This document shows positions 28,560 to 44,688 of a stretch of DNA of 64,000 nucleotides, piece after piece. The stretch is from positions 256,001 to 320,000 of the forward strand of contig JAIPGM010000002.1 in NCBI GenBank assembly GCA_021735655.1, written 5' to 3'. A program made the translations under genes and the position numbers. Every line of letters starts with the position of its first letter. Within the stretch, counting starts at the first letter, position 1. The notes beneath the pieces were generated by a model. It was not told the DNA's origin. It saw only the letters and a list, made by a program, of their open reading frames with translations, and did no database searches. The stretch is from Candidatus Omnitrophota bacterium (lineage in GTDB: Bacteria; Omnitrophota; Gorgyraeia; Duberdicusellales; 4484-171).

Positions 28560-30056
28560 CTAGAAAAAGAGATCTCTTTCGCCTTCTTTAATCCTTCGAT
28601 AATAACTCATGAATTGGTCAAAAACCTGAGGGATGTTTTTGCGGACTTCCTCTATTTCTTTCGTGATTACTTTCTCAGCTATATTTTTAGTTTCCTCGCT
28701 GGCAAAATCATCTAACCATTCACGAAAAGTTAAAACAGCATTTAATTTACAAAATTTACCTTCTTGACCAGTTTTAAGTAACTCCATAATGCATTCACCC
28801 GTTCTGCCGCAGCGATAACCAGCAGTACAAAAAGAACTGATTACCCCCATTGAGGCAAACTCTCTAATCATCTCATCTAGGCTACGAGTATCAGCCAAAA
28901 TAAATTGCTGTCGGGGGCTGTCTTGAGTTTTACTCTGATCGCTGTATGAACCAATTCCTATTTTGGTAGAAGCATCAGTTTGAGTTATTCCTAGCCTGAT
29001 TGAATCTCTCTTCATCTGAGGGGTTTCCCGACAAGTAATAATTAGACCAGTATGAGGCACAGCCAGTCTAAGCACAGTAATTAACTTTTTAAACTGCTGA
29101 TCCGAAACCTTATATTTTAAATTATCATTAAAAGGCGTGTTTTCTGCCGGTTCAAGGCGTGGAAAAGATATCGTATGAGCTCCGACACCAAATTTATCCT
29201 CTAATTCACGATTATGCGCAACCAAGCTCATTAGCTCAAACTTCCAATCGTAAAGCCCAAATAAAACACCCAAGCCAACATCATCAACCCCAGCCTCAAA
29301 GGCACGATGCATCGCATAAAGTCGCCAGAAGTAATTTCCTTTTATTGTAGTTGGCGGATGAATAGTTTTATAGGTGGTCTTATGGTAAGTCTCTTGGAAA
29401 ACTTGATAGGTACCAATTCCGACATCTTTTAGACGACCCAATTCCTCTATCGATAAGGGCGGAGCATTCACATTTACCCGACGAATCTGACCAACGCCAT
29501 TTTTGGTTTTCTCCCGAACATTATAAATAGTACGAATTGAATCAACCATGTAATTTATATCATTCGAAGGATGCTCTCCATAAACGACAATTAAACGTTT
29601 ATGACCAATCTTACCAGCCAAAACAGCGGTTTCCTTCTCAACCTGCTTTAAGCTTAAGACTCGGCGTTCACTCTTTGTGTTAGATCGTCTGAAACCACAA
29701 TAAAGACAATCATTAACACAATAATTCCCAAGATAAAGCGGAGCAAAGGTGACGATTCGATTGTCATAAACCTTTCGCTTCACCCTTAAGGCGCATTCCT
29801 TCATCAATTCTAATGTTTTAGAATCAGTTACCCTTAAAAGGGTTGCCGTCTCATCAAGAGTTAAAGTTTTAATCGCTAAGGATTTATTTAAAATGTCTTC
29901 GACTTCTTTGGAATCAGGCTCCTGAGTGCATGATAATTTCGTAAAGATTTCTTTCTGAGGAATAAAATCCTTACCCTCAATCATATAACGCTCAATTTGG
30001 TCGCGCTTTATACGTTGAGACTCCCAACTCTGAAATTTATTAGTCTTAATTAACAT
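28560..30056 (-). CDS. hydG: HydG-family radical SAM tyrosine lyase ([FeFe]-hydrogenase maturase homolog)
   Basis: A 498-aa ORF with the motif CVNDCLYC (Cx3Cx2C) inside FAPLYLGNYCVNDCLYCGFR. Further HydG-diagnostic blocks are GHKRLIVVYGEHP, RRVNVNAPP, GIGTYQVFQETYH, DDVGLGVLFGLYDWKFE and FGVGAHTISFPRLEPA. The C-terminal auxiliary-cluster region FCTAGYRCGRTGEC...(x)...C aligns with the HydG CxxCx22C motif CTACYR-GRTG...C. The second Cys is replaced by Gly, and extra Cys residues sit at +6 and +12. Confidence 0.8.
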   Translation of the reverse strand: MLIKTNKFQSWESQRIKRDQIERYMIEGKDFIPQKEIFTKLSCTQEPDSKEVEDILNKSLAIKTLTLDETATLLRVTDSKTLELMKECALRVKRKVYDNRIVTFAPLYLGNYCVNDCLYCGFRRSNTKSERRVLSLKQVEKETAVLAGKIGHKRLIVVYGEHPSNDINYMVDSIRTIYNVREKTKNGVGQIRRVNVNAPPLSIEELGRLKDVGIGTYQVFQETYHKTTYKTIHPPTTIKGNYFWRLYAMHRAFEAGVDDVGLGVLFGLYDWKFELMSLVAHNRELEDKFGVGAHTISFPRLEPAENTPFNDNLKYKVSDQQFKKLITVLRLAVPHTGLIITCRETPQMKRDSIRLGITQTDASTKIGIGSYSDQSKTQDSPRQQFILADTRSLDEMIREFASMGVISSFCTAGYRCGRTGECIMELLKTGQEGKFCKLNAVLTFREWLDDFASEETKNIAEKVITKEIEEVRKNIPQVFDQFMSYYRRIKEGERDLFF

Positions 30057-30698
30057 CTAACTTCCCTGCTTTACAAAAAATATTAAACTCTCTAACTCAC
30101 AAGCCATATCAACGTTAGAAACAAATATATTATCAGGAACTTTCAAGGCAATTGGAGCGAAGTTAAGTATTCCCTTAATATTTGAATCGATTAACTGGTT
30201 AGCTATGTCTTGAGCTACTTCAGGCGGCGTAGCTATTATTGCTATTTTTATTCCATCTTTTTTAATCATTTCACTCAAATTATCAATAGCCTGAACTACG
30301 ATACCTTTTTTTGTTTTACCAATCTTTTTCTGATCATTATCAAAAATTGCAGTAATTTTTATATTAAACTTTGAAAAACCATCGAACCCCAACAAGGCCC
30401 CACCGACTCTACCTAGGCCTACCAAAGCAATATTCCAATCAATATGGGTTCCGACTATTTTTTGGATTTGTCCAATTAAAAAATCTACGTTATAGCCCAC
30501 ACCGCGCTTGCCAAATTCACCAAAATAAGACAAATCCTTTCTAAACTGAGACGGAGTTACGTTTAAAAACTTAGTTATTTTATCCGAAGAAATAACTTCA
30601 ACTCCCTGCTTTTTTATTTTTCGTAAGTTACGTAAATACAGAGTAAGCCTTCTGATCGTTTCCAAAGAAAAATGTTTCTTGTCTTTACTGTTTTTCAT
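30057..30698 (-). CDS. rex: Redox-sensing transcriptional repressor Rex
   Basis: A 213-aa ORF with a winged helix (ITKFLNVTPSQFRKDLSYFGEFGKRGVGYNV) and an NADH-binding Rossmann fold (IALVGLGRVGGALLGF). Confidence 0.85.
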   Translation of the reverse strand: MKNSKDKKHFSLETIRRLTLYLRNLRKIKKQGVEVISSDKITKFLNVTPSQFRKDLSYFGEFGKRGVGYNVDFLIGQIQKIVGTHIDWNIALVGLGRVGGALLGFDGFSKFNIKITAIFDNDQKKIGKTKKGIVVQAIDNLSEMIKKDGIKIAIIATPPEVAQDIANQLIDSNIKGILNFAPIALKVPDNIFVSNVDMACELESLIFFVKQGS

Positions 30699-32016
30699 CA
30701 GATACTCTAGTATCCCGAGCTATACCTAAATCGGTAGGCGCCCGGCCTAAAGATTTAAGTAAATTAATAGTCTCAGTAATCTGATCATTAATCTCCGCTT
30801 CGCCATAGGCCTTATTAGGATAAATTGCATAATACTTTCGATATTTACGCGGAGTTAAATTGAGCATTACCGAATTTCCACCCGAAGACAATCCTTTCTT
30901 GCGTGCCTCTAAAGATAAGGTCTCAAAGGCTGTGGTTATAAGAATTTTAGCCGCTTCTGGATCGATTAAACGAGCCAAAGCAAGGTTTTTTAAAACTTCT
31001 TCTTCAGAAGGAGCTTTGCAATTGGCCAAGAGACTATTCGGGTGAGGCAAAAATGGCCCAAATGAGTACATCTCAGAGCCCAAAGCCTTAGTTAGATAAA
31101 TATCATTTATCGTATCTTGATTAGTTTGACCAGGCAAACCAATCAAGGCACCAGTCATAACTAAATACCCTAATTCATGGGCTTTTTTTAGATGATCCAG
31201 GCGACTATCTAAAGTTTGGCCAGGATGTAATTTCTCATAGATTTTAGGATTTGAAGTTTCAAAACGCATCAACAATGCTCTTGCCCCAGCCTGATAAAGC
31301 TTAAGCAATCCATCAAGCCCGACTTCACCAAAGCTTATACAAATCAAAACTGGAACCGTTTCTTTAATTTTTCTTATAATTTCCGCTAGATCATCTATGC
31401 TATAGTGTGGGTCTTCTCCCGATTGCAAAACTAAAGCCTGGAAACCATACTCTTTAACGGCACCAACTGCCGTCTCAATGATTTCCGCCGCTGACATTCG
31501 ATAACGCATAAGATTCTGGTTGTCAGCTGAAATACCACAATATTGACAACTCTGCTTACAAAAATTAGATATTTCGATTATCCCATGAATACAACATGAA
31601 TTTTTATGGTACTTTTGACGCAAAAAGTTAGCGGTTCGATAAAGAATATCTTGAGCCTCAGGCTTATCTAACTTAAGTAAATAAAATAACTCTTCTTTAC
31701 TCAATTGAATATTTTCTAAAGCTTTATCTAAAATAAGACTTAGCTGCCTGTCGATATTTTTTTTGCTAAGATCCAAGCGAGACAATCGTAAGTCCATATC
31801 CTGAAGTTCGAAAAAAAGCTCATTCCAAGCTGCCAAGGTCTCCTCAGCCTCCTTTGGGGAAACTTTTTTAATTACAAACCCGCCTTGAGCCGACACATAA
31901 TCACCGGGTTTGATATCATAAAACTCATTGATTGCTTTTTTTTCTTCACCAAAGTAATCAACCAGAACGGTTTTCCCAACTATTTCTTTTACCTTGCCAG
32001 GTATTGCATAACACAT
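30685..32016 (-). CDS. HypC/HupF-like domain fused to a HydE-family radical SAM enzyme
   Basis: The N-terminal ~75 aa begin MCYAIPGKVKEIVGK...GDYVSAQGGFVI...EAEETLAAWNELF, which carries the HypC signature (MC-x-IP, essential Cys2). The start is taken as the second Met so that Cys is residue 2. The remainder is a radical SAM with CKQSCQYC and HydE-like blocks (IIEISNFC, YRMSAAEI, LVLQSGEDP, GLPGQT, GPFLPHP, YAIYPNK). Confidence 0.8.
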   Translation of the reverse strand: MCYAIPGKVKEIVGKTVLVDYFGEEKKAINEFYDIKPGDYVSAQGGFVIKKVSPKEAEETLAAWNELFFELQDMDLRLSRLDLSKKNIDRQLSLILDKALENIQLSKEELFYLLKLDKPEAQDILYRTANFLRQKYHKNSCCIHGIIEISNFCKQSCQYCGISADNQNLMRYRMSAAEIIETAVGAVKEYGFQALVLQSGEDPHYSIDDLAEIIRKIKETVPVLICISFGEVGLDGLLKLYQAGARALLMRFETSNPKIYEKLHPGQTLDSRLDHLKKAHELGYLVMTGALIGLPGQTNQDTINDIYLTKALGSEMYSFGPFLPHPNSLLANCKAPSEEEVLKNLALARLIDPEAAKILITTAFETLSLEARKKGLSSGGNSVMLNLTPRKYRKYYAIYPNKAYGEAEINDQITETINLLKSLGRAPTDLGIARDTRVSDEKQ

Positions 32017-32030
32017 AACAAACTCCAATT

Positions 32031-32273
32031 TTACTCTACATCAAACGATAGCACCTGTATCACTGTTCCCGGGAAAAAAGTTAGCTCTAGCTCAGCCTTA
32101 GCACAAGGAGTCCCCTCAGCTAAAATTTTAAAGGTTTCTCTAAATGAATCCTCCTTGATCCCGTTCAGCTCACCGATTTTTATATGTATCTTAGACACTA
32201 CCTTTGAGCCTTCTTTTTCAGCGTGTTCACAAATTCCTTTAATCAATGGTTTTATGATATGGGTTTCGTGCAT
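32031..32273 (-). CDS. hypA: HypA-like nickel metallochaperone lacking the zinc-finger domain
   Basis: An 80-aa ORF starting with MHE, the HypA Ni-binding N-terminus, and ending in the HypA-like VIQVLSFDVE. The two CxxC pairs of canonical ~113-aa HypA are absent. Confidence 0.55.
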   Translation of the reverse strand: MHETHIIKPLIKGICEHAEKEGSKVVSKIHIKIGELNGIKEDSFRETFKILAEGTPCAKAELELTFFPGTVIQVLSFDVE

Positions 32274-32728
32274 GTTTTTACCTCAATAATTAAATTAGTT
32301 AATTCCTTTAATGTTTTAGCAACACTTTGTGAAATCTCATCACCAAACTCAAGAGTTTTCGGTTGCACCCCTAAAAGAAAAATATCAGCTTCGGTTTCTT
32401 TACCCAAAAAATCTAAAAACATCCTTGGTGATAAATCATGAGTAGTGAATCCCGATTTCACGATATCTTCCTTAACTAAAATCTCATAATCTCCTGGCTC
32501 TTTACCAAGATCAACAACATCAACTATTAAAATCGTATTTGGACGTTCTTTGGTTATTTTGCCAATATAGTTTTCTGGTGCTGAACCAACATCAATACAG
32601 GTTGCATCCACTTTCTGGTAAACAGTCTCAATGAACTTAGGACCGAAAGCATCGTCACCACGCATAATATTTCCTACCCCAACGATAACGACTTTCCCTT
32701 TAAAAACATTCCGAAAAATATTATTCAT
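32252..32728 (-). CDS. hycI: Hydrogenase maturation endopeptidase (HycI-type)
   Basis: A 158-aa ORF with VVIVGVGNIMRGDDAFGP and a conserved His/Asp pattern. Its short length fits the HycI subtype that serves group-4 hydrogenases. Confidence 0.8.
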   Translation of the reverse strand: MNNIFRNVFKGKVVIVGVGNIMRGDDAFGPKFIETVYQKVDATCIDVGSAPENYIGKITKERPNTILIVDVVDLGKEPGDYEILVKEDIVKSGFTTHDLSPRMFLDFLGKETEADIFLLGVQPKTLEFGDEISQSVAKTLKELTNLIIEVKTCTKPIS

Positions 32729-32768: not shown

Positions 32769-33380
32769 TTACTCAGCAGTAAGGGTGGTTTCACGTCGAC
32801 AGCGGGCGCATAGAATCTTAACTCGATCAGAACGCCCATCATCCCTTAAAGCTGAAACAATATTTTCATCTACAATACCAAGACTTTTAAGATGGGAAAG
32901 ATAAAGCGTAGGACTTGAGTAGGTAAGCTCACCTAATTTTTGAGAAATCCATTTAAGGTGATCTTTGCAGGCTATTACATCGCCGCAAACTTCACAAAGT
33001 TGTAGTTCTTTTTCTATTTGTTCTTGGGCTTGAGCGCGGTCAAAAAATGATAACTCCCAATCAGTAGATAACTTAATACCTTGCTTATCAGCCAAACAGG
33101 CTGCTTCACACTGTCCACAAAAAATACAAGTATCAGTATAATGAATCATCAGCCGCTTAGGATCATCTTTATTTTCAGTAATATCCTTATGAGAAATCGC
33201 TTCAACTGGGCAAACCTCTTCACAACCGCAACAACCAACACATTTTTGATCATTAAACTTCGGCTGACCGCGAAAGTTAGGATGAGCCACATGGGCCTCT
33301 TTAGGGAACTTTGACGTGTAAGGCCCCTTAATCAATGCCTTGATTGCTTCAACCAACTCTCTTAATTTTGGCAACTTCAT
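32769..33380 (-). CDS. 2x[4Fe-4S] ferredoxin subunit of group-4 hydrogenase (NuoI/HycF/MbhN-like) with a Cys-rich C-terminal extension
   Basis: CVGCCGCEEVCP and CIFCGQCEAAC are followed by a ~90-aa tail containing CEVCG...C and CARC. Confidence 0.8.
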   Translation of the reverse strand: MKLPKLRELVEAIKALIKGPYTSKFPKEAHVAHPNFRGQPKFNDQKCVGCCGCEEVCPVEAISHKDITENKDDPKRLMIHYTDTCIFCGQCEAACLADKQGIKLSTDWELSFFDRAQAQEQIEKELQLCEVCGDVIACKDHLKWISQKLGELTYSSPTLYLSHLKSLGIVDENIVSALRDDGRSDRVKILCARCRRETTLTAE

Positions 33381-33391
33381 AAATTTATCTT

Positions 33392-33474
33392 AAAAAAGAA
33401 GCGTAAAACGTAGTCTAGACTCAATATTCTTGAATCACCCGTGGCTAAAACTTTTCGTCTACGTTTACGCTTCT
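33392..33474 (-). terminator. Large hairpin + U6 between mrpG and the NuoI-like ferredoxin gene (intra-operon terminator/attenuator candidate)
   Basis: In the minus-strand RNA, GAAGCGUAAACGUAG, then ~45 nt, then CUACGUUUUACGCUUC, followed by UUUUUU. This is a ~15-bp stem with one bulge. The 5' arm overlaps the last codons of mrpG, and the downstream ferredoxin gene has no SD. Confidence 0.4.
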
Positions 33475-33803
33475 CCTTCCTTATCCTCTTTATATTTATC
33501 AATTACACTACCTTCCCAAAGTTTAACCCCGGCCCGATGGGCTCCTCTGGCTACAGCATGGGCAGCTACCGGCGAGGTTAACAAAAGAAAAACCGCACAA
33601 AGAAGCGCCTTAAAGCCCGCGGCAATAAAGCCAACAATTAAAAATGTTCCAAAAAGAATACTACAAGTTCCTAAAGTAACACACTTGGTGGCTGCTTGAA
33701 GACGATTATATACATCCGGAAGTCTTACCAAACCTAAGCAACCAACTATATCAAAAGCTAACCCACCGGAAATGAATATCAAACCAATAATATCACTCAT
33801 CAA
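33465..33803 (-). CDS. Mrp-type cation/H+ antiporter subunit G-like hydrogenase membrane subunit
   Basis: A 112-aa ORF with 3 TM helices and an MnhG/PhaG-like pattern. Confidence 0.75.
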   Translation of the reverse strand: MMSDIIGLIFISGGLAFDIVGCLGLVRLPDVYNRLQAATKCVTLGTCSILFGTFLIVGFIAAGFKALLCAVFLLLTSPVAAHAVARGAHRAGVKLWEGSVIDKYKEDKEGEA

Positions 33804-34188
33804 ACCCTCTTCCCTCTAAATATTTCGAAAGAGCTAAGGTGCTAATAAAACTTTGAAGCGCCCAAGCAATTCCAATATCCAGATACCAAGATCTTCCAGT
33901 CGAAATAGTTAAAACTGCACAAAGCCCCACAATCATAATCCCTAAAATATCAATCGCTACAATTCTGTCGGCTCCGGTAGGACCTTTAGCAATACGATAA
34001 AGCGCCAGTACACATCCTAGAATTAGAATGTAAAGTGCCCTCCCAACAAGACCACTATAGACGAGATTTTCAGGAAAAAGAAAACCAAAAGGCCTAAAAA
34101 TAATTAAGCCTAAAACAATACTAAGGGTAGTTGCTCCAAACAGCCAATTTAACATCTTTTTGCTTTCAGCTTTTTTCTTTTTAGCCAT
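33793..34188 (-). CDS. Mrp subunit F-like
   Basis: GPTGADRIVAIDIL is a MnhF hallmark. Confidence 0.75.
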   Translation of the reverse strand: MAKKKKAESKKMLNWLFGATTLSIVLGLIIFRPFGFLFPENLVYSGLVGRALYILILGCVLALYRIAKGPTGADRIVAIDILGIMIVGLCAVLTISTGRSWYLDIGIAWALQSFISTLALSKYLEGRGFDE

Positions 34189-34193
34189 AGTAA

Positions 34194-34691
34194 TTATTCA
34201 AATATTTTTCTTAATATTTTCTCAAACCGCTCAATAATAACTTTGGTAGCAGCTTCAGTCTGAGTTTCCTTCACGTCAATCCAATGTACATATAAAACAC
34301 CATCATCCTTGTCAATATCTACAGTTAAAGTTCCTGGAGTAAGTGTTATTGAATTCGCTAAAAATGTAAGCGCTGTATCTGTCTTAAGCGTAGTTTTCAC
34401 CTTAACAATGCCAGGTTTTATCGGTAAATTAGGATGTAGAATCCTGTAGGCAACATCAATATTTGCTTTAAAACACTCCCATAGAAATCTCGGAAGATAA
34501 TAAACAAAAAAATACCAGTATCTCAAAGGGTGCTTAAGGACATGAGGACGTTTTACAAACAAATCTCCGGTTAAAAAAGCACAAAGAGCGGCTGCGAATA
34601 CACCAATAGCTAGATGCTGCCAATCCGGTACCCAGTTCAATAAGCACCATACAACAAAGGCAACTAAAAATAAAACTATTTTTCTTTTCAT
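34194..34691 (-). CDS. Mrp subunit E-like
   Basis: The SITLTPGTL motif and two N-terminal TM helices. Confidence 0.75.
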   Translation of the reverse strand: MKRKIVLFLVAFVVWCLLNWVPDWQHLAIGVFAAALCAFLTGDLFVKRPHVLKHPLRYWYFFVYYLPRFLWECFKANIDVAYRILHPNLPIKPGIVKVKTTLKTDTALTFLANSITLTPGTLTVDIDKDDGVLYVHWIDVKETQTEAATKVIIERFEKILRKIFE

Positions 34692-36187
34692 TGGACTGCT
34701 CTGATAATATTTATTGTGTAGTTTTTTGTGCCAAGCAAAACCCCAGAGGCTTTAAGCAGGAATTGTTCTCTTATCCCCGGAAAAAATAAAAACCCACCTA
34801 AAAGGCAAACTAAAACTAAGATAATCATCGAAGCCTTCATGAAAGCAGGCACTTCAGTAATATTTTCCCACTGTTTCCTAAGATTTCCAAAAAATGCATA
34901 CTTCATAACCTTGGTAAAAGAAGCAAGGGTCAAAATACTAGCCAACACTGCCCAAAAACCATACCAATACTGGTTGGCCTGAACACAAGCAATAATAATA
35001 ATTAACTTGCTCCAAAAACCATTAAACGGCGGAATTCCAGCGATTGACATAGAAGCTCCAAAAGCAGTAGCTGAGGTAACTGGCATTCTTTGACTTAATC
35101 CCCCCATTTTTTTTAAATCTCTGGTTCCGGTTGTGTATTCAACAGCACCAGAATTTAAAAAAAGAAGAGATTTGAATATTGAGTGATTGAACAAATGGAA
35201 TAAGCCTCCGATTATACCTAAAGGAGTGCCCAAACCTATCCCCAAAATAACATAACCAATCTGGCTTATTGAATGATAGGCAAGCAAACGTTTCAAATCC
35301 CACTGTCCGATAGCCAAAAATACACCAACCACCATTGAGAGCGCACCGAGCGCCATCAAAATCATTGAAAGCTGACTATTCACACCTAAAATATTAAAGA
35401 ATATACGGCAAAGAGTGTATACTCCTAATGATTTAATCAATACCCCAGAAAGCATAGCTGATATTGGAGCTGGTGCTGAAGGATGAGCATCAGGAAGCCA
35501 GGCATGAAACGGCACCAAAGCTGCTTTTAAACCAAAACCCATAAGAAACAATACACTTACTAATATTAAAACATTTGGGCAGTCGGCTTGAGACAAAACT
35601 AAACCCATATCAGCCATATTTAGGGTTGAAGTGCAACTATATAGAAATACAATACCTAAAAGAATAAATAATGACCCTACGGTACTCATCAGGGCATATT
35701 TAAAGGCGGCTTCAAGCTCATGGCGTTCAGTTCCAAAAGCAACCAGAGCATAACTAGCAACAGAGGCAATCTCTAAAAAAACAAAAAGGTTAAATATGTC
35801 GCCAGTTATCAAAACCCCGTTCATCCCTCCCAACATCAATAGAAATAAGGTGTAAAATTTCCATTTAGCGGTGAACTTTTCCATGTAGTTAATTGAAAAA
35901 AGAGCTACACAAAAAGCAACTAAATTAACCGTAACTAACATAAAACTAGTTAGACCGTCTAAGACAAAAGTTATCCCGATTGGCGGCTTCCAAGATCCAG
36001 CAGCATAAACCAACACTCCATGCTCAGCCACAAGTTTTACACTGTAAAGCGACAAAAATAAAAGAGCTGTTGTGCATAAATTACCAATTAAATCCGGCAG
36101 CCATTTACTTTTTTTACCAAACAAAACAGTTAAAAAGGCACCCGAAAGACAAACTACAACAAAAATTGGTATAATATTAGAACTCAT
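34688..36187 (-). CDS. Mrp subunit D / NuoN-like proton-pumping membrane subunit (second copy)
   Basis: A 499-aa ORF with ~14 TM helices and the NuoL/M/N family core. Confidence 0.8.
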   Translation of the reverse strand: MSSNIIPIFVVVCLSGAFLTVLFGKKSKWLPDLIGNLCTTALLFLSLYSVKLVAEHGVLVYAAGSWKPPIGITFVLDGLTSFMLVTVNLVAFCVALFSINYMEKFTAKWKFYTLFLLMLGGMNGVLITGDIFNLFVFLEIASVASYALVAFGTERHELEAAFKYALMSTVGSLFILLGIVFLYSCTSTLNMADMGLVLSQADCPNVLILVSVLFLMGFGLKAALVPFHAWLPDAHPSAPAPISAMLSGVLIKSLGVYTLCRIFFNILGVNSQLSMILMALGALSMVVGVFLAIGQWDLKRLLAYHSISQIGYVILGIGLGTPLGIIGGLFHLFNHSIFKSLLFLNSGAVEYTTGTRDLKKMGGLSQRMPVTSATAFGASMSIAGIPPFNGFWSKLIIIIACVQANQYWYGFWAVLASILTLASFTKVMKYAFFGNLRKQWENITEVPAFMKASMIILVLVCLLGGFLFFPGIREQFLLKASGVLLGTKNYTINIIRAVQ

Positions 36188-36189
36188 AT

Positions 36190-36525
36190 CTATCCCCGCA
36201 ACTCTCTAATTTTAGTAATATCAAATGTTTGATACTTTTCATAAATTCGCATAGCGATTGCAATAAGCAAAGCTGTTGATGCCAAACCAATAACAATTGA
36301 AGTCAAAACTACTGCCTGAGGTAAGGCATCGACCATATTATTAATTGTTGTGTCTGGTGAATATATCGGAGAACGCCCCTTTATCCGATAAGCAACTAAG
36401 ATAAATAAAAGATTTACTGCATATTCAGCGATGATAACACCAATAATAATCTTAATTATATTACGTTTACGTAAAATACAATAAAGACCAACACAAAAAA
36501 GCACCAAACAAAGCAAGTAGATCAT
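36190..36525 (-). CDS. Mrp subunit C / NuoK-like
   Basis: A 111-aa ORF with 3 TM helices and VDALPQAVVLTSIVIGLA. Confidence 0.8.
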   Translation of the reverse strand: MIYLLCLVLFCVGLYCILRKRNIIKIIIGVIIAEYAVNLLFILVAYRIKGRSPIYSPDTTINNMVDALPQAVVLTSIVIGLASTALLIAIAMRIYEKYQTFDITKIRELRG

Positions 36526-36977
36526 TTTCCTTCGGTTCCTCCATCAAATTTAAGCAAAGTAAGGGCAATAAATATAGCAAACAAACCGGCCCCGACCTTT
36601 AAACTAATTGCAATATTACAAAGTGGAATAATCCCAGCTGAAAAAAGTCTAAACGGCTCCCCCTTAGGAAGAAAGTTTAAAAAGAAATACCCACCAGTAA
36701 ACCCCAAAAGGGCAATTGCTAAAAACATTATTGCTCCAAAACCTTCAAAAAAAGAAATAGCTTTCTTAGGCATTCTTTTTAAAGCCGCGTCTTTACCATA
36801 AGCAAGCATTAAATGAATAAAGCTGAGTGCAATAATTACCCCTCCGGCAAATCCTCCACCGGGGGAAACATGACCATGAGAAAGAATATAAATACCAAAA
36901 AGAAGTATTATGCCCACGGTAAGACGAGTAATTGTCTTAACGATTACCGACATTCCCTTTTCATGCTCTTTGCTCAT
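36522..36977 (-). CDS. Mrp subunit B-like (MnhB domain)
   Basis: The HGHVSPGGGFAGG MnhB motif. Confidence 0.8.
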   Translation of the reverse strand: MSKEHEKGMSVIVKTITRLTVGIILLFGIYILSHGHVSPGGGFAGGVIIALSFIHLMLAYGKDAALKRMPKKAISFFEGFGAIMFLAIALLGFTGGYFFLNFLPKGEPFRLFSAGIIPLCNIAISLKVGAGLFAIFIALTLLKFDGGTEGK

Positions 36978-37526
36978 TTATTCATCCTCTGGGTCTACTT
37001 TCTCATTAATTTTTTTACGCCCGACCCTGCGCACTAGGGTTAAAACACCTATTACTGCGGTAAATAAAACTGTAGCTTCACCTAAGGTGTCATAGGCTCG
37101 ATAATCAAGAATAACTGAAGCAACAATATTAGTTGCTCCGGTCTTAGCTAAGCCTTGCTTAAGATAAGTATCGGCCACCCGCATAATTGGATAACCAAAA
37201 CGTGGCAAATCACCAATTGCCTTATAGGCTGCAAATAAAAATAAACTAACAAAGCCTAAAATAATTGAGGTATTAAGTAACCATCGACCACTAGTTGAAA
37301 AAGGTAAATCTTTTTTTAAAGTTGCCCGAATCAAAATGATTAAACATAATATCTCAACTACTAATTGAGTAATTGCAACATCGGGAGCTTTGAGAATAAT
37401 AAACGTTATCGAAAGCCCTAGCCCTACGGCACCGACGGCAATAACTGAGGAAAGCAGATCTTTAAGCTCAACGGCGACAATTGCCCCAACAATCATAAAA
37501 ATTAATAAAATATATAGCTCAAACAT
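36978..37526 (-). CDS. MnhB-related membrane subunit (MbhD/E-like)
   Basis: A 182-aa polytopic ORF resembling the N-terminal MrpB/DUF4040 portion. Confidence 0.55.
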   Translation of the reverse strand: MFELYILLIFMIVGAIVAVELKDLLSSVIAVGAVGLGLSITFIILKAPDVAITQLVVEILCLIILIRATLKKDLPFSTSGRWLLNTSIILGFVSLFLFAAYKAIGDLPRFGYPIMRVADTYLKQGLAKTGATNIVASVILDYRAYDTLGEATVLFTAVIGVLTLVRRVGRKKINEKVDPEDE

Positions 37527-37533
37527 ATTTAAG

Positions 37534-39192
37534 TTACTTTAAAAGTATATAAAAAAGTATCCCCATACCTAAAAGACACCAGGACAAATAAGTAGATAAA
37601 ATGCCATTATGCAAATAACGCAAAATACTGTTAAAGCCAAAAGTAATTTTACTACCGACTTCATAAATATCGAATAATTTCTTATTAGCTAAACTATAGA
37701 TAACCTTTAACAGGCCCAACTCTTTGATTGTGTTATAAAAATCAGTTCCTGAAACTCTCATCTCGGGATATTTTTCAGTGCTTTCTCCGCCCATAAAAAT
37801 ATTAACCTGGCGACTCTTTGAAACTGTGCCCAAAAGATAAACTATTAGACCAATGACCATGCCAGCAAGAATCAAAGCCGTAGCTAAACTTGCATTCCAG
37901 ACTCCGGAAAACTCTACTGGCTGCCAAATAACCGGAAAGATAAAAAACTTAAGCGGAAGCCGGTAAGCAAATACACCAAAAACTACACATAGTAAGGCTA
38001 AAATTGCTCCCGGTATCCACATCGCTAGCCCAACCTCTTTTTTCTGATCTTTACTGAGTGCTTTTACGGTTGTGCTTTCTTGACCCAAAAATACAGCATG
38101 AACAAGTTTCATGAAACTTGCCAAAGTTAAGGCACTTCCAAACATGGCTGAAACTAACCAAACGACCCATAACCCACCACTGTTTTTAGCCGTCTCAATG
38201 ATACCCTGGTAGATCATCCATTTAGAAACAAAACCATTAAATGGCGGAACCCCAGAGATAGCAAATGAAGCAATCAAAAAAGTAATAAAAGTAATCGGCA
38301 TATATTTAGCAAGACCGCCAAGTTTATCTAAATTAGTAGTTTTGGTCCTTTTTTCTACAGAGCCACTGGTTAAAAATAAACAAGACTTATAAATCGCATT
38401 ATTCAGCATATGAAATAGTCCACCGGCAATACCGATAATTGTACCCGTACCAATACCTAAAATCATATAACCAACTTGACTTACCGCATGATAACCAAGG
38501 AGTCTCTTTAAGTCATGTTGGACTAAAGCCATCATAACCGCAGCTATAATAGTAAAGCTACCGATAAACATCAAAAATGTATTCATGCTTAAACCTAAAC
38601 GAAACATTTCCAAGGAAATTCTAATTAAAAGATATATTCCCAAAAGTTTGTCCAAAGAAGCAGGCAAATAAGCCGCAACCGGAGTTGGTGAGTCTTCAGC
38701 TGCGTCAGGAACCCAGGTATGAAAAGGCATAGCCCCGGCTTTAGCAAAAGCTCCGACCGCCAAACAAAGATAGGCAAAAGTAGCCACCTTAGAAGTCAAT
38801 GGTATTGATATTAAATCCATCTCGAATAAACCGGTAAGTTTCCAAATTAAGGCAACTCCCAAAAGCATTAAAGCATCGGTTCCACCAATTATAATAAATG
38901 CTTTCTTTGCCGTAGCTGAGCTATTATCCTTTTTACCAAAGCCAATTAAAAGATAAAGAAGCAACCCCAAGAATCCCCAGAAAACCATGAACAGAATTAA
39001 ATTATTGGCAAAAACCACACCCAAAGAAGCAATCAAAGTAAAAAAGATATAAAGGTAGTAACGTGAAATTCCACGTTGGGCACGCATGTACCCCATCGAA
39101 TATACAGTTACCAAAATAGAAAAAAACCAAATAAATATTCCGACAAATATCGACAAAGCATCAAATCTAAAATAATTCGCTAAAAAATTCAT
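37534..39192 (-). CDS. Mrp subunit D / NuoL-like antiporter membrane subunit (MbhH-like)
   Basis: A 552-aa ORF with the NuoL/M/N family core. Confidence 0.8.
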   Translation of the reverse strand: MNFLANYFRFDALSIFVGIFIWFFSILVTVYSMGYMRAQRGISRYYLYIFFTLIASLGVVFANNLILFMVFWGFLGLLLYLLIGFGKKDNSSATAKKAFIIIGGTDALMLLGVALIWKLTGLFEMDLISIPLTSKVATFAYLCLAVGAFAKAGAMPFHTWVPDAAEDSPTPVAAYLPASLDKLLGIYLLIRISLEMFRLGLSMNTFLMFIGSFTIIAAVMMALVQHDLKRLLGYHAVSQVGYMILGIGTGTIIGIAGGLFHMLNNAIYKSCLFLTSGSVEKRTKTTNLDKLGGLAKYMPITFITFLIASFAISGVPPFNGFVSKWMIYQGIIETAKNSGGLWVVWLVSAMFGSALTLASFMKLVHAVFLGQESTTVKALSKDQKKEVGLAMWIPGAILALLCVVFGVFAYRLPLKFFIFPVIWQPVEFSGVWNASLATALILAGMVIGLIVYLLGTVSKSRQVNIFMGGESTEKYPEMRVSGTDFYNTIKELGLLKVIYSLANKKLFDIYEVGSKITFGFNSILRYLHNGILSTYLSWCLLGMGILFYILLK

Positions 39193-40376
39193 TTTATGCC
39201 TAGTTTACTTTTTATCTTTTCGGTTTTACTTTGTGAAAGGCGAACTAAATCCTCACCGTTATATATTTTTTTACCCTTAGTGTTACGTACCGCCACTCTC
39301 TCAGTACAACAATAACAAGGATCAATGGACGCTAAAATTATCGTTGCATCAGAAATCGTCTCGCCAACCACAGTTGCCTTATAGGTCGGTAAATTCATAA
39401 AAGTAGGTGCTCTTACTTTGTGACGAGCCGGTCGATTGGTCCCATCGCTTTTCACATAATGAAAACATTCACCCCGCGGCGCCTCAATATGACCGATACC
39501 TTCACCTGAAGGAATACTTTTAATCTTAGCATCAATTTCTGTATCCGGAAGGTTTAAAAGGCAATACTTAACCATATCTATCGATTCAAAAGTCTCTAAA
39601 ATTCTTACTACCGCTTTATCGAAAACATCGCCATTTTTAGTCACAATCATATTCCAGTTAAACTGATCATATGCCCCATAAGGAGAATTTTTACGTAGAT
39701 CTCTGGCCACCCCCGAAGCCCGAGATACCGGACCGAGAGCACAAAAGTTAATTGCCTCATCCTTAGTGAGGATACCTATTCCTTTAGTCCTAGCATGTAA
39801 CACCGGGTCATCGATTACTGCCTTTTTAAGCATTTCAAGAGTCGGGATAATCGAATCTATCTTTTTTATCGCAAAAGGTATATCTTCTTTTTTTATGTCT
39901 CGCCGAACCCCTCCCGGCTTAAACATAGCATAGTTGTTGCGATTTCCCGAAAGTGCCTCCATAACATCAAGGATTTCCTCACGCAACTTCCAAGCCCACA
40001 TATAAACAGTATTGTAACCTAAAAAATGTCCGGCAAGACCCAACCATAAAAGATGTGAATGAATACGTTCTCCCTCAGCGATAATTGTTCGGATATATTT
40101 AGCCCTCATTGGCACTTCTAGAGGGATAACATCCTCAACTGCCCGAGTATAAGCATAAGGATGACTGGTTGAACAAATACCACAGATTCTCTCAATTACA
40201 AAAGTAGATTGGTCGAAGGTTTTTCGCTCAGAAAGCTTTTCAATGCCGCGATGGTTATAACCAATCTGAACATCGATATCAACAACTGTCTCCCCATCTA
40301 CAGTTAAGCTGAAAAACTCAGGCTCTTCCTGTAAAGGGTGATATGGTCCGATTGGAACTATAGTTCGTTTTCCCAT
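39189..40376 (-). CDS. [NiFe] hydrogenase large (catalytic) subunit, group 4 (NuoD/EchE/MbhL-like)
   Basis: The L1 motif RICGICSTSH (RxCGxCxxxH) is near the N-terminus. The L2 motif DPCYCCTER (DPCxxCxxR, the Arg form typical of group 4) is near the C-terminus. A ~30-aa tail follows, as expected for a HycI-processed precursor. Confidence 0.9.
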   Translation of the reverse strand: MGKRTIVPIGPYHPLQEEPEFFSLTVDGETVVDIDVQIGYNHRGIEKLSERKTFDQSTFVIERICGICSTSHPYAYTRAVEDVIPLEVPMRAKYIRTIIAEGERIHSHLLWLGLAGHFLGYNTVYMWAWKLREEILDVMEALSGNRNNYAMFKPGGVRRDIKKEDIPFAIKKIDSIIPTLEMLKKAVIDDPVLHARTKGIGILTKDEAINFCALGPVSRASGVARDLRKNSPYGAYDQFNWNMIVTKNGDVFDKAVVRILETFESIDMVKYCLLNLPDTEIDAKIKSIPSGEGIGHIEAPRGECFHYVKSDGTNRPARHKVRAPTFMNLPTYKATVVGETISDATIILASIDPCYCCTERVAVRNTKGKKIYNGEDLVRLSQSKTEKIKSKLGIK

Positions 40377-40849
40377 TATAATCCTCGATCTCTAATTGAT
40401 GAGTCGTCCCACTCTTGATAATCGCGTCTCAAAGGATATACACCTTGTGGCCACTCATCGGGCAAAAGCAACCGCTTCAACTCTGGATGACCGCGAAAAT
40501 TGACTCCTAACATTTCAGCTATCTCACGTTCAATCCAATTAGCACCTTCAAATATTGGGGCTAATGAATCTATTTCTAATTTGCTCTTATCCAACTTAAC
40601 CCGGAAAGAAACTACTAAATTTATATCTTCAAAGGTAAAATGATAAAGAATTTCTATATGTTTAAATGTATCTACTCCCGAAGCAATATTGAATCTGGCC
40701 CCCAAATTTTTAAAAACATAGGTCGCAACCTTAACAATCGCCTGAGGTTTAATCTCAATATAGACCCGAGTTAAGGTCTTATCGAAAATATCTAAAATAT
40801 CTTCGTCGAATCTTTTCTTTAAATCTTTAATAACTTCGCTTCTGGTCAT
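40376..40849 (-). CDS. NuoC-like (30-kDa) hydrogenase subunit
   Basis: A 157-aa ORF with a NuoC/HycE-N domain pattern. Confidence 0.75.
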   Translation of the reverse strand: MTRSEVIKDLKKRFDEDILDIFDKTLTRVYIEIKPQAIVKVATYVFKNLGARFNIASGVDTFKHIEILYHFTFEDINLVVSFRVKLDKSKLEIDSLAPIFEGANWIEREIAEMLGVNFRGHPELKRLLLPDEWPQGVYPLRRDYQEWDDSSIRDRGL

Positions 40850-41286
40850 TTTGCTTGAGGGTTTCCAGCCCCACTTAATTTATCGATTAACTTAACAACC
40901 CCGGCAATAATCGCCTCTGGTTTCGGCGGGCACCCAGGTATATATACGTCTACCGGAATAATTTTATCAACTGGCAAAGGACAGTTATAGCTATGAATAA
41001 ACATACCTCGCGACAAAGAGCACTCACCAACAGCCACTACTACACAAGGCTTCGGCATCTGCTCATATACTTCTTTAATCCGAGGAATGCACTTTCGATT
41101 AGCAGAACCAGTTACTAAAAGCACGTCAGCATGTTTTATGCTTCCGGCTAAAAGCATGCCAAACCTTTCGATATCAAAGCGTGGGGTTAAACAATCCAAT
41201 ATTTCAATATCGCAATTATTGCAACTACCAGTTGAAAGATGAAAAACCCATGGTGACTTGAGTAATGCTTTAAGTTTTATGCTCAT
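40846..41286 (-). CDS. NuoB-like [NiFe] hydrogenase small subunit (proximal 4Fe-4S)
   Basis: GSCNNCDIE ... VGECS ... PGCPPKPEA. The start is trimmed to the Met of MSIKLKALL to avoid overlap with the upstream gene. Confidence 0.85.
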   Translation of the reverse strand: MSIKLKALLKSPWVFHLSTGSCNNCDIEILDCLTPRFDIERFGMLLAGSIKHADVLLVTGSANRKCIPRIKEVYEQMPKPCVVVAVGECSLSRGMFIHSYNCPLPVDKIIPVDVYIPGCPPKPEAIIAGVVKLIDKLSGAGNPQAK

Positions 41287-42769: not shown

Positions 42770-42776
42770 AATAGCT

Positions 42777-44663: not shown

Positions 44664-44688
44664 ACTTTGTGATTTTATTCACAAAGTA
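44664..44688. promoter_or_regulatory. Rex operator (TTGTGAtTTTATTCACAA) upstream of the hydrogenase operon
   Basis: A perfect palindrome ACTTTGTGA-TTTTAT-TCACAAAGT. The 18-bp core TTGTGATTTTATTCACAA matches the Rex consensus TTGTGAAnnnnTTCACAA at 17 of 18 positions. It lies 45-65 bp upstream of the first hydrogenase-operon gene, and rex is encoded in the same operon. Confidence 0.6.

What the first reader, a model, noticed from the sequence alone, without database searches (positions are those of the whole stretch)
28560..32728. HypC-HydE fusion gene, plus HydG, inside a [NiFe] hydrogenase maturation block
The block hycI - hypA(short) - [HypC domain fused to HydE radical SAM] - rex - hydG sits directly downstream of a group-4 [NiFe] hydrogenase structural operon.

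HypC is the Cys2 scaffold that carries the Fe(CN)2CO unit during [NiFe] maturation. HydE and HydG are the radical SAM enzymes that build Fe(CO)x(CN) synthons from tyrosine for [FeFe] hydrogenases.

I do not know of a described architecture with HypC covalently fused to HydE and paired with an adjacent HydG next to a NiFe enzyme. No hydA, hydF or hypDEF is visible in this 64 kb.

The arrangement suggests a hybrid maturation route in which tyrosine-derived CO/CN- is delivered to a HypC scaffold for the [NiFe] site. That would also address the unknown anaerobic CO source. The HydG homolog has an altered auxiliary-cluster motif (CTAG... instead of CxxC).
Basis: partly seen in the sequence, partly recalled or inferred. 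Interest (0 to 1): 0.88.

Follow-up and report, generated by a model that had tools for sequence, protein, structure and literature searches.

The report
HypC fused to HydE-like maturase
A nickel-iron hydrogenase operon ends with a gene fusing the iron-carrier HypC to a distinct paralogue of the radical-SAM enzyme HydE, followed by HydG; the fusion occurs in at least 431 species, including a phylum reported to have no iron-only hydrogenase, so some anaerobes may take CO and cyanide for the nickel-iron site from tyrosine.

Summary
On the minus strand, tightly packed genes encode HycI, an 80-aa HypA, a HypC+HydE-like fusion, Rex and HydG. They sit directly after a group-4 Mrp-Mbh [NiFe] hydrogenase.

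The fusion is a family, not a one-off. A scan of species-representative genomes found it in 431, across at least 8 phylum-level labels. In 82 neighbourhoods it usually follows a [NiFe] large subunit (63), a maturation protease (58) and a short HypA (37).

The fused HydE domains form one clade, only about 35% identical to canonical HydE. Two Omnitrophota contigs carry both the fusion and a separate canonical HydE plus HydF beside an [FeFe] hydrogenase.

Saganbacteria carry the fusion, including a closed 1.67-Mb genome. Published surveys report no [FeFe] hydrogenase in them. So HydE/HydG serving only [FeFe] enzymes is unlikely.

A role in [NiFe] cofactor assembly is the best reading (about 0.6). 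Genome-wide absence of HypD/E/F could not be tested. None lies within 10 kb in 86 loci, but E. coli's hyb operon also keeps them elsewhere.

The altered HydG motif is real and clade-conserved. Its C-x5-C-x19-C spacing has a reported Clostridium precedent.

No paper in the searched library describes the fusion.

The parts
44668..44683 (.). Rex-operator-like perfect palindrome TGTGATTTTATTCACA, 49 nt upstream of the first gene of the hydrogenase operon
   Evidence: It is the only perfect TGTGA-N6-TCACA match in the 64 kb and lies inside an 11-bp-stem inverted repeat. Its function is inferred from the known Rex operator consensus, which I recalled from memory.
32769..44619 (-). Structural operon of a group-4 Mrp-Mbh type [NiFe] hydrogenase. 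It encodes Fer4_22, FAD/NAD-binding and Fer4_11 proteins, NuoH-like, small subunit, 30-kDa and large subunits, Mrp-like membrane subunits and a NuoI-like FeS subunit.
   Evidence: Pfam on window ORFs. Precomputed Pfam of syntenic relatives L001 and L004.
39189..40376 (-). [NiFe] hydrogenase large subunit (395 aa) with a C-terminal extension to be cleaved
   Evidence: RICGICSTSH and DPCYCCTER followed by 33 residues. Relatives carry PF00374/PF00346.
32252..32728 (-). HycI-type hydrogenase maturation endopeptidase
   Evidence: PF01750 64 bits; TIGR00072 103 bits.
32031..32273 (-). Short HypA (80 aa): the nickel-binding N-terminal domain with the MHE start, and no zinc-finger domain
   Evidence: PF01155 matches profile positions 1-70 of 112. 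A conserved 80-aa form occurs in 37 of 82 loci.
30685..32016 (-). HypC + HydE-like fusion protein (443 aa from ATG 32016; the ORF runs up to TTG 32028)
31777..32016 (-). HypC domain (aa 1-80): MCYAIPGKV N-terminus (Cys2, Pro6), an OB-fold and a long helix
   Evidence: PF01455 55.9 bits. Matches T. kodakarensis HypC 2Z1C. The AF2 model has strands at 7-52 and a helix at 54-79.
30733..31731 (-). HydE-like radical-SAM TIM barrel (aa 96-428), with CX3CX2C at Cys153/157/160
   Evidence: 220 bits to T. maritima HydE. The model superposes at 1.5-1.6 A rmsd over 336 columns. Catalytic residues are conserved, but R54 becomes H144 and R155 becomes G/A247.
30057..30698 (-). Rex, the redox-sensing (NADH/NAD+) transcriptional repressor, embedded between the two radical-SAM genes
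   Evidence: NF003995 258 bits. Present downstream of the fusion in 37 of 82 loci.
28560..30056 (-). HydG (498 aa), a radical-SAM tyrosine lyase / Fe(CO)2(CN) synthon synthase homologue
   Evidence: TIGR03955 448.5 bits. 431 bits to T. italicus HydG 4WCX, with the dangler-Fe histidine aligned.
28749..28829 (-). Variant auxiliary-cluster motif of HydG: C410-x5-C416-x5-C422-x13-C436, replacing C-x2-C-x22-C
   Evidence: The C-x5-C-x19-C spacing is also reported for a Clostridium HydG.

Best explanation
The block is the maturation tail of the [NiFe] hydrogenase operon, and the fusion plus HydG act on the [NiFe] enzyme rather than on an [FeFe] enzyme.

Proposed mechanism:
1. HydG cleaves tyrosine and builds an Fe(Cys)(CO)2(CN)-type unit on its C-terminal cluster. 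This is established for canonical HydG and inferred here.
2. The HydE-like domain takes that unit and uses a 5'-deoxyadenosyl radical to strip the cysteine, giving a mononuclear Fe-CO/CN fragment. This is established for T. maritima HydE and inferred here from conserved catalytic residues.
3. The fragment is not dimerised and passed to HydF. It is captured by Cys2 of the covalently attached HypC domain. This step is inferred.
4. HypC inserts it into the apo large subunit. The short HypA then delivers nickel, and HycI cuts the C-terminal tail. These are established roles of those families.
5. Rex, with an operator-like palindrome at the operon start, ties expression to the NADH/NAD+ ratio. This is inferred.

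Whether this route replaces HypD/E/F or works alongside them (for example as the CO donor) is open. How an Fe(CN)2(CO) stoichiometry would be reached is also open.
For: 1. Family and synteny. The fusion is encoded in 431 species-representative genomes. The best 80 carry Omnitrophota, Margulisiibacteriota/Saganbacteria, Atribacterota (Caldatribacterium), Spirochaetota, Elusimicrobia, Auribacterota and Deltaproteobacteria/Syntrophales labels. In 82 non-redundant loci it follows a [NiFe] large subunit in 63 (4g-type or 3b), a maturation protease in 58 and a short HypA in 37. Rex is present in 37, and a true HydG lies within 10 kb in at least 36 of 80. Downstream genes differ between relatives, so the unit ends at HydG.

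2. Paralogy. Fused HydE domains are monophyletic. They average 59% identity to each other and 35% (maximum 41%) to canonical HydEs. Omnitrophota canonical HydEs are closer to Thermotoga HydE (43-49%) than to the fused domains. The window's domain scores just below the HydE equivalog cut-off, while an unfused Omnitrophota HydE scores 312.

3. Both paralogues on one contig. L087 has the fusion ... Rex-HydF-...-HydA-NuoE-HydE. L091 has the fusion C-terminus-Rex-...-HydA-...-HydG-HydE-HydF.

4. A phylum without [FeFe] hydrogenase. [quoted passage not shown] Yet RX5A (closed, 1,668,697 bp, = L082), RX3C (L046, with HydG), RX6A (L060) and RX4A (L071: 3b large subunit, HycI, HypA, fusion) carry the fusion. 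Other Saganbacteria MAGs have 3b-HycI-HypA-fusion-HydG.

5. A 906-aa HypC+HydE+HydG triple fusion exists (P0147).

6. HydE catalytic residues (C63/67/70, Q107, E161, M224, T268, T269, M291, Y306, K/R309) are conserved, so the substrate class is probably the same. HypC sits at the N-terminus, as a functional Cys2 requires.

7. No HypD/E/F/B in 1.30 Mb around 86 loci, and HydF only in L087's separate [FeFe] cluster. One locus has an 85-aa HydF C-terminal remnant right after HydG.
Against: - Genome-wide absence of HypD/E/F was not tested. The layout protease - HypA-like - HypC-like at the end of a structural operon also occurs in E. coli hyb (hybD, hybF, hybG), where HypD/E/F are encoded elsewhere. 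I state this from my own knowledge. Local absence is therefore weak evidence.
- Some Omnitrophota genomes do encode HypC/D/E (and HypF) (Seymour supplement).
- Every characterised [NiFe] site has Fe(CN)2(CO), whereas HydG yields Fe(CO)2(CN).
- In 6 loci an [FeFe] hydrogenase operon lies directly downstream of fusion-Rex. In the Omnitrophota 'FCAACYR' clade, fusion-adjacent HydGs group with HydGs of canonical hydGEF clusters. HydG is therefore not always a dedicated paralogue.
- Some loci (L082, L074) have no hydrogenase or HydG within 10 kb.
- No expression or biochemical data exist.
Confidence: 0.6

Rival explanations
1. Two unrelated jobs in one polypeptide. HypC serves the [NiFe] enzyme through an ordinary HypD/E/F set encoded elsewhere. 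HydE and HydG serve an [FeFe] hydrogenase encoded elsewhere. The fusion arose only because hypC (end of a NiFe operon) and hydE (start of an FeFe/maturase cluster) were neighbours.
For: Six loci have fusion-Rex followed directly by an A3-type [FeFe] hydrogenase operon. Some 4g-carrying Omnitrophota also have A3 [FeFe] hydrogenases. L088 shows FeFe + hydGEF immediately upstream of a window-type group-4 operon. Fusion-adjacent HydGs of one Omnitrophota clade group with hydGEF-cluster HydGs.
Against: Genomes with [FeFe] hydrogenase have their own canonical, unfused HydE next to HydF (L087, L088, L089, L091). The fused domain would then be redundant. Fused domains form a separate old clade. Saganbacteria carry the fusion, often with HydG, but are reported to have no [FeFe] hydrogenase, including the closed genome RX5A. 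HydF is absent from all fusion neighbourhoods except L087's FeFe cluster. Ace Lake Omnitrophota MAGs with a 4g enzyme were reported to have no other hydrogenase, although I did not show that those MAGs carry the fusion.
Confidence: 0.13
2. The same enzymes act on the [NiFe] pathway only as an accessory. A normal HypC/D/E/F machinery encoded elsewhere makes the cyanides, and HydG plus the HydE-like domain supply the CO (or a pre-carbonylated Fe). This would be an anaerobic counterpart of HypX. It is a sub-case of the best explanation and differs only in whether HypD/E/F are dispensable.
For: It would resolve the (CN)2(CO) versus (CO)2(CN) mismatch. The anaerobic CO source is unresolved (review). 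Hyp genes exist in some Omnitrophota. The hyb-like layout makes HypD/E/F elsewhere plausible.
Against: HydG makes cyanide as well, so keeping HypE/F would be partly redundant. No HypD/E/F lies within 10 kb in any of 86 loci from many phyla. HypC His51 (E. coli numbering, recalled from memory) is replaced by an invariant Gln44, which may mean altered scaffold chemistry.
Confidence: 0.3
3. The HydE-like domain does different radical-SAM chemistry unrelated to an Fe-CO/CN unit, for example sulfur or carbon chemistry on a small molecule or on the large subunit. HypC would merely tether it to the hydrogenase precursor.
For: The domain falls just below the HydE equivalog cut-off. Two residues invariant in the four canonical HydEs compared differ: R54 becomes His and R155 becomes Gly/Ala. 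The bottom S3 anion site of the HydE cavity is functionally important. Placing R54 and R155 in that site is my recollection, not a verified fact.
Against: All residues highlighted for complex-B processing are conserved, including M224, K/R309, T268/T269, Q107, E161 and Y306. The model superposes on complex-B-bound HydE at about 2.5 A or better. HydG, the only known source of the HydE substrate, is the recurrent neighbour and is even fused in P0147.
Confidence: 0.08

Closest known systems
HypC/HybG/HupF chaperones of the canonical HypCDEF [NiFe] maturation pathway (e.g. E. coli HypC/HybG, T. kodakarensis HypC, PDB 2Z1C)
   Same: N-terminal Met-Cys-x-x-x-Pro. A small OB-fold followed by a helix. 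Encoded after the protease and a HypA-type gene at the end of a hydrogenase operon, as with hybD-hybF-hybG.
   Different: It is covalently joined through a roughly 30-residue helix and linker to a 340-residue radical-SAM barrel. No HypD lies nearby. The His conserved in many HypC proteins is an invariant Gln. It scores below the TIGR00074 cut-off (43.3 against 48).
HydE, the [FeFe]-hydrogenase H-cluster radical-SAM maturase (T. maritima HydE, PDB 3IIZ, 7O1O)
   Same: Same fold (rmsd 1.5-1.6 A). Same CX3CX2C motif. Same residues around the Fe(Cys)(CO)2(CN) substrate, including M224 and K/R309.
   Different: It is a separate clade, about 35% identical to canonical HydEs. It coexists with a canonical HydE in the same contigs. 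It is found in a phylum reported to lack [FeFe] hydrogenase. It has no HydF partner nearby. R54 becomes His and R155 becomes Gly/Ala. It has no second-cluster cysteines.
HydG, the tyrosine lyase / Fe(CO)2(CN) synthon synthase (T. italicus HydG, PDB 4WCX)
   Same: About 50% identical over the full length. Radical-SAM motif and dangler-Fe histidine are retained. 105 invariant positions are shared with canonical HydGs. It scores above the equivalog cut-off.
   Different: It sits in a [NiFe] operon with no HydF or HydA in 64 kb. In the window's clade the auxiliary motif is C-x5-C-x5-C-x13-C instead of C-x2-C-x22-C. A C-x5-C-x19-C form is also reported for Clostridium autoethanogenum.
HypX, the aerobic CO donor for [NiFe] maturation
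   Same: It would be an accessory enzyme that supplies a diatomic ligand to the HypC-bound iron.
   Different: The fold and chemistry are unrelated: HypX uses formyl-THF/formyl-CoA decarbonylation, not radical-SAM tyrosine cleavage. HypX works under oxic conditions; these organisms are anaerobes.
HcgA/HmdB-type radical-SAM enzymes of [Fe]-hydrogenase cofactor synthesis
   Same: They are BioB/HydE-like radical-SAM enzymes recruited to a hydrogenase type other than [FeFe].
   Different: Only weak similarity: HmdB model 64 bits against a cut-off of 321. Different cofactor and different organisms.

Membership tests
HypC/HybG/HupF (PF01455, TIGR00074) | Profile match above the curated threshold | tested here: met
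   PF01455 55.9 bits against 28.5. The stricter TIGR00074 gives 43.3 against a cut-off of 48, so that one is not met.
HypC/HybG/HupF (PF01455, TIGR00074) | Essential N-terminal cysteine (Cys2) in an MCxxxP motif at the very start of the protein | tested here: met
   MCYAIPGKV from ATG 32016. M1, C2, I5 and P6 are invariant in 63 homologues.
HypC/HybG/HupF (PF01455, TIGR00074) | Small OB-fold beta barrel with a C-terminal helix | tested here: met
   The AF2 model has five strands at 7-52 and a helix at 54-79, with pLDDT 73-89. Sequence match to PDB 2Z1C/3VYR HypC.
HypC/HybG/HupF (PF01455, TIGR00074) | Works in a complex with HypD | not testable with these tools
   No HypD within 10 kb in 86 loci. 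Whole genomes could not be searched.
HydE (TIGR03956 equivalog) | Score above the equivalog cut-off | tested here: not met
   248.9 against 254.6. An unfused Omnitrophota HydE scores 311.9.
HydE (TIGR03956 equivalog) | Radical-SAM CX3CX2C motif, full TIM-barrel fold and the substrate-site residues | tested here: met
   C153/157/160. rmsd 1.5-1.6 A to TmHydE. Q107, E161, M224, T268, T269, M291, Y306 and K/R309 are conserved.
HydE (TIGR03956 equivalog) | Groups with canonical HydEs and co-occurs with HydF and HydA | tested here: not met
   It forms a separate clade at 35% identity. There is no HydF or HydA in the window. It is present in Saganbacteria, which are reported to lack [FeFe] hydrogenase.
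HydG (TIGR03955 equivalog) | Score above the equivalog cut-off; radical-SAM motif | tested here: met
   448.5 against 312.15. CVNDCLYCGF aligned to TiHydG.
HydG (TIGR03955 equivalog) | C-terminal C-x2-C-x22-C auxiliary-cluster motif | tested here: not met
   C410-x5-C416-x5-C422-x13-C436; the second Cys is replaced by Gly413. Variability of this motif is documented.
HydG (TIGR03955 equivalog) | Histidine ligand of the dangler Fe | tested here: met
   His aligned with the TiHydG histidine in ...LYHANH.... The residue assignment (His265) is from my memory of the structure paper.
Group 4 membrane-bound [NiFe] hydrogenase (Mrp-Mbh type) | Large-subunit L1/L2 cysteine motifs, complex-I-like subunits and Mrp antiporter-like subunits | tested here: met
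   RICGIC and DPCYCC. PF00374/PF00346, Oxidored_q6, Complex1_30kDa, NADHdh, MnhB/E, MrpF, PhaG and Proton_antipo_M in syntenic relatives. The subgroup '4g' is taken from the literature on relatives and was not classified here.
HypA nickel metallochaperone | N-terminal MHE nickel site plus a zinc-binding CxxC...CxxC domain | tested here: not met
   The MHE start is present. The protein ends at residue 80 and matches only profile positions 1-70 of 112, so there is no zinc domain.

The most novel reading that the evidence does not exclude
In these lineages the HypC-HydE-like fusion plus HydG fully replace HypD, HypE and HypF. The Fe-carbonyl-cyanide unit of a [NiFe] hydrogenase would then be built from tyrosine by radical-SAM chemistry borrowed from the [FeFe] pathway and handed directly to HypC. 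That would be a second, independent biosynthetic route to the [NiFe] cofactor, possibly giving a non-canonical ligand set.
Probability: 0.3. Interest if true: 0.92.

Novelty: new variant of a known kind. Interest (0 to 1): 0.8.

Why it matters
[quoted passage not shown] This family links the [NiFe] iron carrier physically to the enzymes that make CO and cyanide for [FeFe] hydrogenases. It does so in hundreds of species, and in organisms reported to have no [FeFe] enzyme. If the link is functional, there are two consequences:
- At least some anaerobes obtain [NiFe] CO, and perhaps CN, from tyrosine.
- The two maturation systems, thought to be separate, share parts.

The idea is directly testable. 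Two carrier genomes are closed, and Caldatribacterium strains are now in culture. HydG/HydE in vitro assays and synthetic syn-B also exist.

There is a practical point for annotation. HydE or HydG hits in genomes without HydA should not be read as evidence of [FeFe] hydrogenase maturation.

Tried and rejected
- Exact-sequence look-ups of the window's fusion (TTG and ATG starts) found nothing. The source genome is not in that collection.
- Nine literature searches found no paper describing a HypC-radical-SAM fusion or HydE/HydG acting on [NiFe] enzymes (one search was a syntax error). The 2025 [NiFe] review, the 2024 Cell hydrogenase paper and the Omnitrophota, Saganbacteria and Caldatribacterium papers do not mention it.
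- I tried to get genome-level Hyp/Hyd presence from the Seymour 2023 source data. The stored tables are truncated to a few genomes, and no genome has both its KO and its TIGRFAM/Pfam list stored in full. They only show that some Omnitrophota have HypCDE(F) and some have HydEFG. The Saganbacteria KO tables contain no Hyp rows at all. The Williams 2021 supplement has none either, and no Caldatribacterium supplement is held.
- I used the 'longest_contig' value as a fingerprint to match HydA hits to fusion contigs. It gave two small overlaps (14134, 18325). None involved the large 4g-type contigs, but only 120 hits are listed, so this is inconclusive.
- My last homology search used a 116-aa large-subunit fragment to reach the 3' end of the L088 operon. 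It returned only fragments, so the search was wasted. A blastn link from L088 to known loci also failed; the best match was 67%.
- I considered using gene counts from PMC12727194 as a base rate for hyp genes near large subunits. I rejected this because the maturation genes were themselves used as queries there.
- A 'PRIC*' HypE-like hit in L071 is a chance match in a non-coding frame.
- A 20-nt Rex box pattern with 3 mismatches was at chance level. The 16-nt core pattern gave one perfect site.
- The promoter and terminator scans were at shuffle level.
- The afdb50 fold library was unavailable.
- I first read the HydG motif change as a sign of a new function. I dropped that once canonical motifs turned up in most other fusion-adjacent HydGs and a Clostridium precedent was found.

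Full report
**1. What is in the window**

All genes in 28.5-44.7 kb lie on the minus strand. From 44619 down to 32769 they encode a membrane-bound group-4 [NiFe] hydrogenase of the Mrp-Mbh type. The operon has:
- three electron-input proteins (Fer4_22, FAD/NAD-binding, Fer4_11);
- NuoH-like, small subunit, 30-kDa subunit and large subunit;
- Mrp-like membrane subunits;
- a NuoI-like ferredoxin subunit.

The large subunit has RICGICSTSH and DPCYCCTER followed by 33 residues. It therefore needs a C-terminal protease.

Five genes then follow:
- HycI, 32252-32728.
- An 80-aa HypA, 32031-32273, which keeps the MHE nickel site and lacks the zinc domain.
- The fusion, 30685-32016.
- Rex, 30057-30698.
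- HydG, 28560-30056.

The genes overlap or abut (22-nt and 14-nt overlaps, one zero gap). This fits a single transcript.

A perfect Rex-type palindrome, TGTGATTTTATTCACA, sits 49 nt upstream of the first operon gene. It is the only perfect match in the window.

The other ORFs scanned encode LPS-core, housekeeping and other unrelated functions. Motif scans, tblastn and Pfam find no HypB/D/E/F, HydA, HydF or second HydE.

**2. The fusion protein**

From ATG 32016 it starts MCYAIPGKV, the HypC signature with Cys2.
- Residues 1-80 match HupF_HypC (55.9 bits) and solved HypC structures.
- Residues 96-428 match T. maritima HydE (220 bits, about 38-44% identity).

An AlphaFold model built on 63 homologues has mean pLDDT 88 and pTM 0.87. 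It shows an OB-fold (residues 7-52), a long helix (54-79), a short less-confident linker, and a TIM barrel. The barrel superposes on HydE crystal structures at 1.5-1.6 A. No solved chain has the two-domain architecture.

Residues that process the Fe(Cys)(CO)2(CN) substrate are conserved. These are the three cluster cysteines, Q107, E161, M224, T268, T269, M291, Y306 and K/R309; the roles of M224 and K309 are taken from PMC11826987.

Two residues invariant in the four canonical HydEs compared are changed throughout the fused clade: R54 to His and R155 to Gly/Ala. From memory, these line the lower anion site of the cavity. I could not verify that. A review only says that the S3 site matters for function.

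**3. It is a large family**

A search of 5.8 billion proteins gave more than 120 clusters at 58-80% identity. Nearly all have both domains, and most of those with a source name are labelled Omnitrophota.

A scan of one genome per species found 431 genomes that encode it. The best 80 all span the HypC domain and the radical-SAM cysteine motif. They carry Omnitrophota, Margulisiibacteriota/WOR-1/Saganbacteria, Caldatribacterium (Atribacterota), Spirochaetota, Elusimicrobia, Auribacterota and Deltaproteobacteria/Syntrophales labels. They include two closed genomes.

A 50%-identity representative search found eight further full-length fusion representatives. It also found one 906-aa protein with HypC + HydE + HydG in a single chain.

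**4. Neighbourhoods**

I analysed 82 non-redundant loci, out of 86 fetched at that stage (1.30 Mb). Around the fusion they show:
- a [NiFe] large subunit, 63 loci;
- a maturation protease, 58 loci;
- the short HypA, 37 loci;
- Rex, 37 loci;
- a true HydG within 10 kb, at least 36 of 80 loci.

The hydrogenase is either the window's group-4 type or a four-subunit group-3b (sulfhydrogenase-like) enzyme.

Six loci have an A3-type [FeFe] hydrogenase operon downstream of Rex.

No HypD, HypE, HypF or HypB was found, either in called ORFs or in raw six-frame translations. One apparent PRIC* hit is spurious. HydF appears only in L087, inside a separate [FeFe] cluster.

**5. Do HydE and HydG serve an [FeFe] enzyme elsewhere?**

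Three results argue against this.

*(a) Two HydE paralogues on one contig.*
- On an 868-kb Omnitrophota contig (L087) the fusion lies about 12 kb from a canonical, unfused HydE (312 bits). That HydE sits beside HydA, with HydF (516 bits) in the same cluster.
- In L091 the order is fusion C-terminus - Rex - [FeFe] operon - HydG - HydE - HydF.
- L088 and L089 show the same canonical hydG-hydE-hydF clusters.

So where an [FeFe] enzyme exists, it has its own HydE.

*(b) Separate clade.* A neighbour-joining tree puts all fused HydE domains from all phyla in one clade. They average 59% identity to each other and 35% to canonical HydEs. Canonical Omnitrophota HydEs are closer to the Thermotoga enzyme than to the fused domains.

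[quoted passage not shown] Their table lists only group 3b, group 4 and Ehr complexes. Their genome table maps my loci as follows:
- RIFOXYB2_FULL_45_9 is RX5A, a single 1,668,697-bp scaffold = L082.
- RIFOXYB2_FULL_46_45 is RX3C = L046.
- RIFOXYB2_FULL_48_7 is RX6A = L060.
- RIFOXYB2_FULL_42_35 is RX4A = L071.

All four carry the fusion. L071 shows 3b large subunit, HycI, HypA, fusion. L046 and other Saganbacteria MAGs have HydG nearby.

One further hint: one Omnitrophota locus has only an 85-aa remnant of the HydF C-terminus right after HydG.

**6. HydG**

The window's HydG is a good HydG. It scores 448 bits, is about 50% identical to T. italicus HydG, and has the dangler-Fe histidine aligned.

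Its auxiliary motif is changed to C410-x5-C416-x5-C422-x13-C436. This variant defines a monophyletic 24-member clade that shares 105 invariant positions with other HydGs. The clade is sister to the Saganbacteria/Margulisiibacteriota fusion-adjacent HydGs.

Three facts limit its significance:
- Most other fusion-adjacent HydGs have canonical C-x2-C-x22-C motifs.
- The triple fusion also has a canonical motif.
- A C-x5-C-x19-C form is reported for the predicted HydG of Clostridium autoethanogenum.

I therefore read the change as a tolerated variant of cluster ligation, not as evidence for a new product.

In one Omnitrophota clade, fusion-adjacent HydGs group with HydGs from hydGEF clusters. In genomes with both hydrogenase types, a single HydG may feed both pathways.

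**7. Most likely mechanism**

*Shown:*
- the domain composition;
- conservation of catalytic residues;
- the fixed N-terminal position of HypC;
- the recurrent operon position after the [NiFe] structural genes, protease and HypA;
- the recurrent HydG neighbour;
- paralogy with canonical HydE;
- presence in lineages reported to lack [FeFe] hydrogenase.

*Inferred:*
- HydG makes an Fe(Cys)(CO)2(CN) unit.
- The HydE-like domain removes the cysteine backbone.
- The attached HypC Cys2 captures the mononuclear Fe-CO/CN fragment, so it is not dimerised for HydF.
- HypC delivers the fragment to the large subunit, after which HypA and HycI finish maturation.
- Rex couples expression to redox state.

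I put 0.6 on this general role. Within it, about 0.3 goes to full replacement of HypD/E/F and about 0.3 to an accessory role beside HypD/E/F encoded elsewhere.

The main caveats:
- Absence of hypDEF from a hydrogenase operon is normal. In E. coli, hybD-hybF-hybG sit apart from hypBCDE and hypF (my own knowledge).
- Whole genomes could not be searched here.
- The known [NiFe] ligand set is (CN)2(CO), while the HydG product is (CO)2(CN).

**8. Comparison with known systems, and novelty**

Each part belongs to, or sits at the edge of, a known family: HypC, HydE, HydG, HycI, HypA and Rex.
- The HydE-like domain fails two membership tests for canonical HydE (equivalog score, and clade plus partners) while keeping the fold and active site.
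- The HypA lacks its zinc domain.
- The HydG lacks the textbook auxiliary motif.

NCBI already labels members variously as a HypC-family chaperone, a radical SAM protein or HydE, so the sequences are public. No paper in the searched library describes or interprets the architecture. This covers nine searches and the recent [NiFe] maturation review.

I rate it a new variant of a known kind, with high interest. It makes an open question, the source of diatomic ligands for [NiFe] sites in anaerobes, directly testable in organisms that now include cultured strains.

Noticed in passing
window 44668-44683: A perfect TGTGA-N6-TCACA palindrome (Rex-operator-like) lies 49 nt upstream of the first hydrogenase gene and is the only perfect match in 64 kb. 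With rex inside the operon, this suggests autoregulated, NADH-responsive expression of the hydrogenase and its maturases.
   Followed up: partly
window 32031-32273; also 37 of 82 related loci: HypA is only 80 aa. It keeps the MHE nickel-binding N-terminus and lacks the whole zinc-finger domain. No HypB lies nearby. This may be a minimal nickel-insertion module.
   Followed up: partly
protein P0147 (906 aa, from the representative library): A single polypeptide carries HypC + HydE-like + HydG domains, with a canonical HydG auxiliary motif. Its contig could not be inspected, so a read-through or assembly artefact is not excluded.
   Followed up: partly
L058 12757-13014: An 85-aa ORF directly after the fusion-adjacent HydG is 47-49% identical to the last ~70 residues of HydF, with SCWGC in place of HCGGC. 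It looks like a remnant of a lost hydF and was seen in only this one species.
   Followed up: yes
window 42203-44619: The Mrp-Mbh type hydrogenase operon begins with three genes for Fer4_22, FAD/NAD(P)-binding (DHOD-B/sulfhydrogenase-gamma-like) and Fer4_11 proteins. This suggests a pyridine-nucleotide-linked input module on a membrane-bound group-4 enzyme. The same three genes open the operon in L088.
   Followed up: no
window 6930-10139: An EF-G-like protein of 1069 aa: the GTPase domain starts only at residue 382, and the G domain spans 274 residues against a 188-position profile. So it has a long N-terminal extension and an insertion.
   Followed up: no
L001-L003, about 9511-9885 in L001: In the closest relatives (79% identical fusion), a 124-aa Pro_CA_2 (PF20393) gene is inserted between HypA and the fusion. 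It is absent from the window.
   Followed up: no
L087 1383-3563: A 726-aa radical-SAM protein with an HxsC-like C-terminal half lies between the fusion and Rex-HydF on the 868-kb Omnitrophota contig. Its function is unknown.
   Followed up: no
L082 (Saganbacteria RX5A, closed genome) and L074 (2.05-Mb Spirochaetota contig): Here the fusion stands alone, with no hydrogenase, protease, HypA or HydG within 10 kb. Operon linkage is therefore not universal.
   Followed up: no
window 27464-28462: The ORF just downstream of HydG is a weak M29-peptidase-like protein (27.7 bits). Relatives have an aldo-keto reductase or an RHS protein at this position, which marks the 3' boundary of the conserved unit.
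   Followed up: partly
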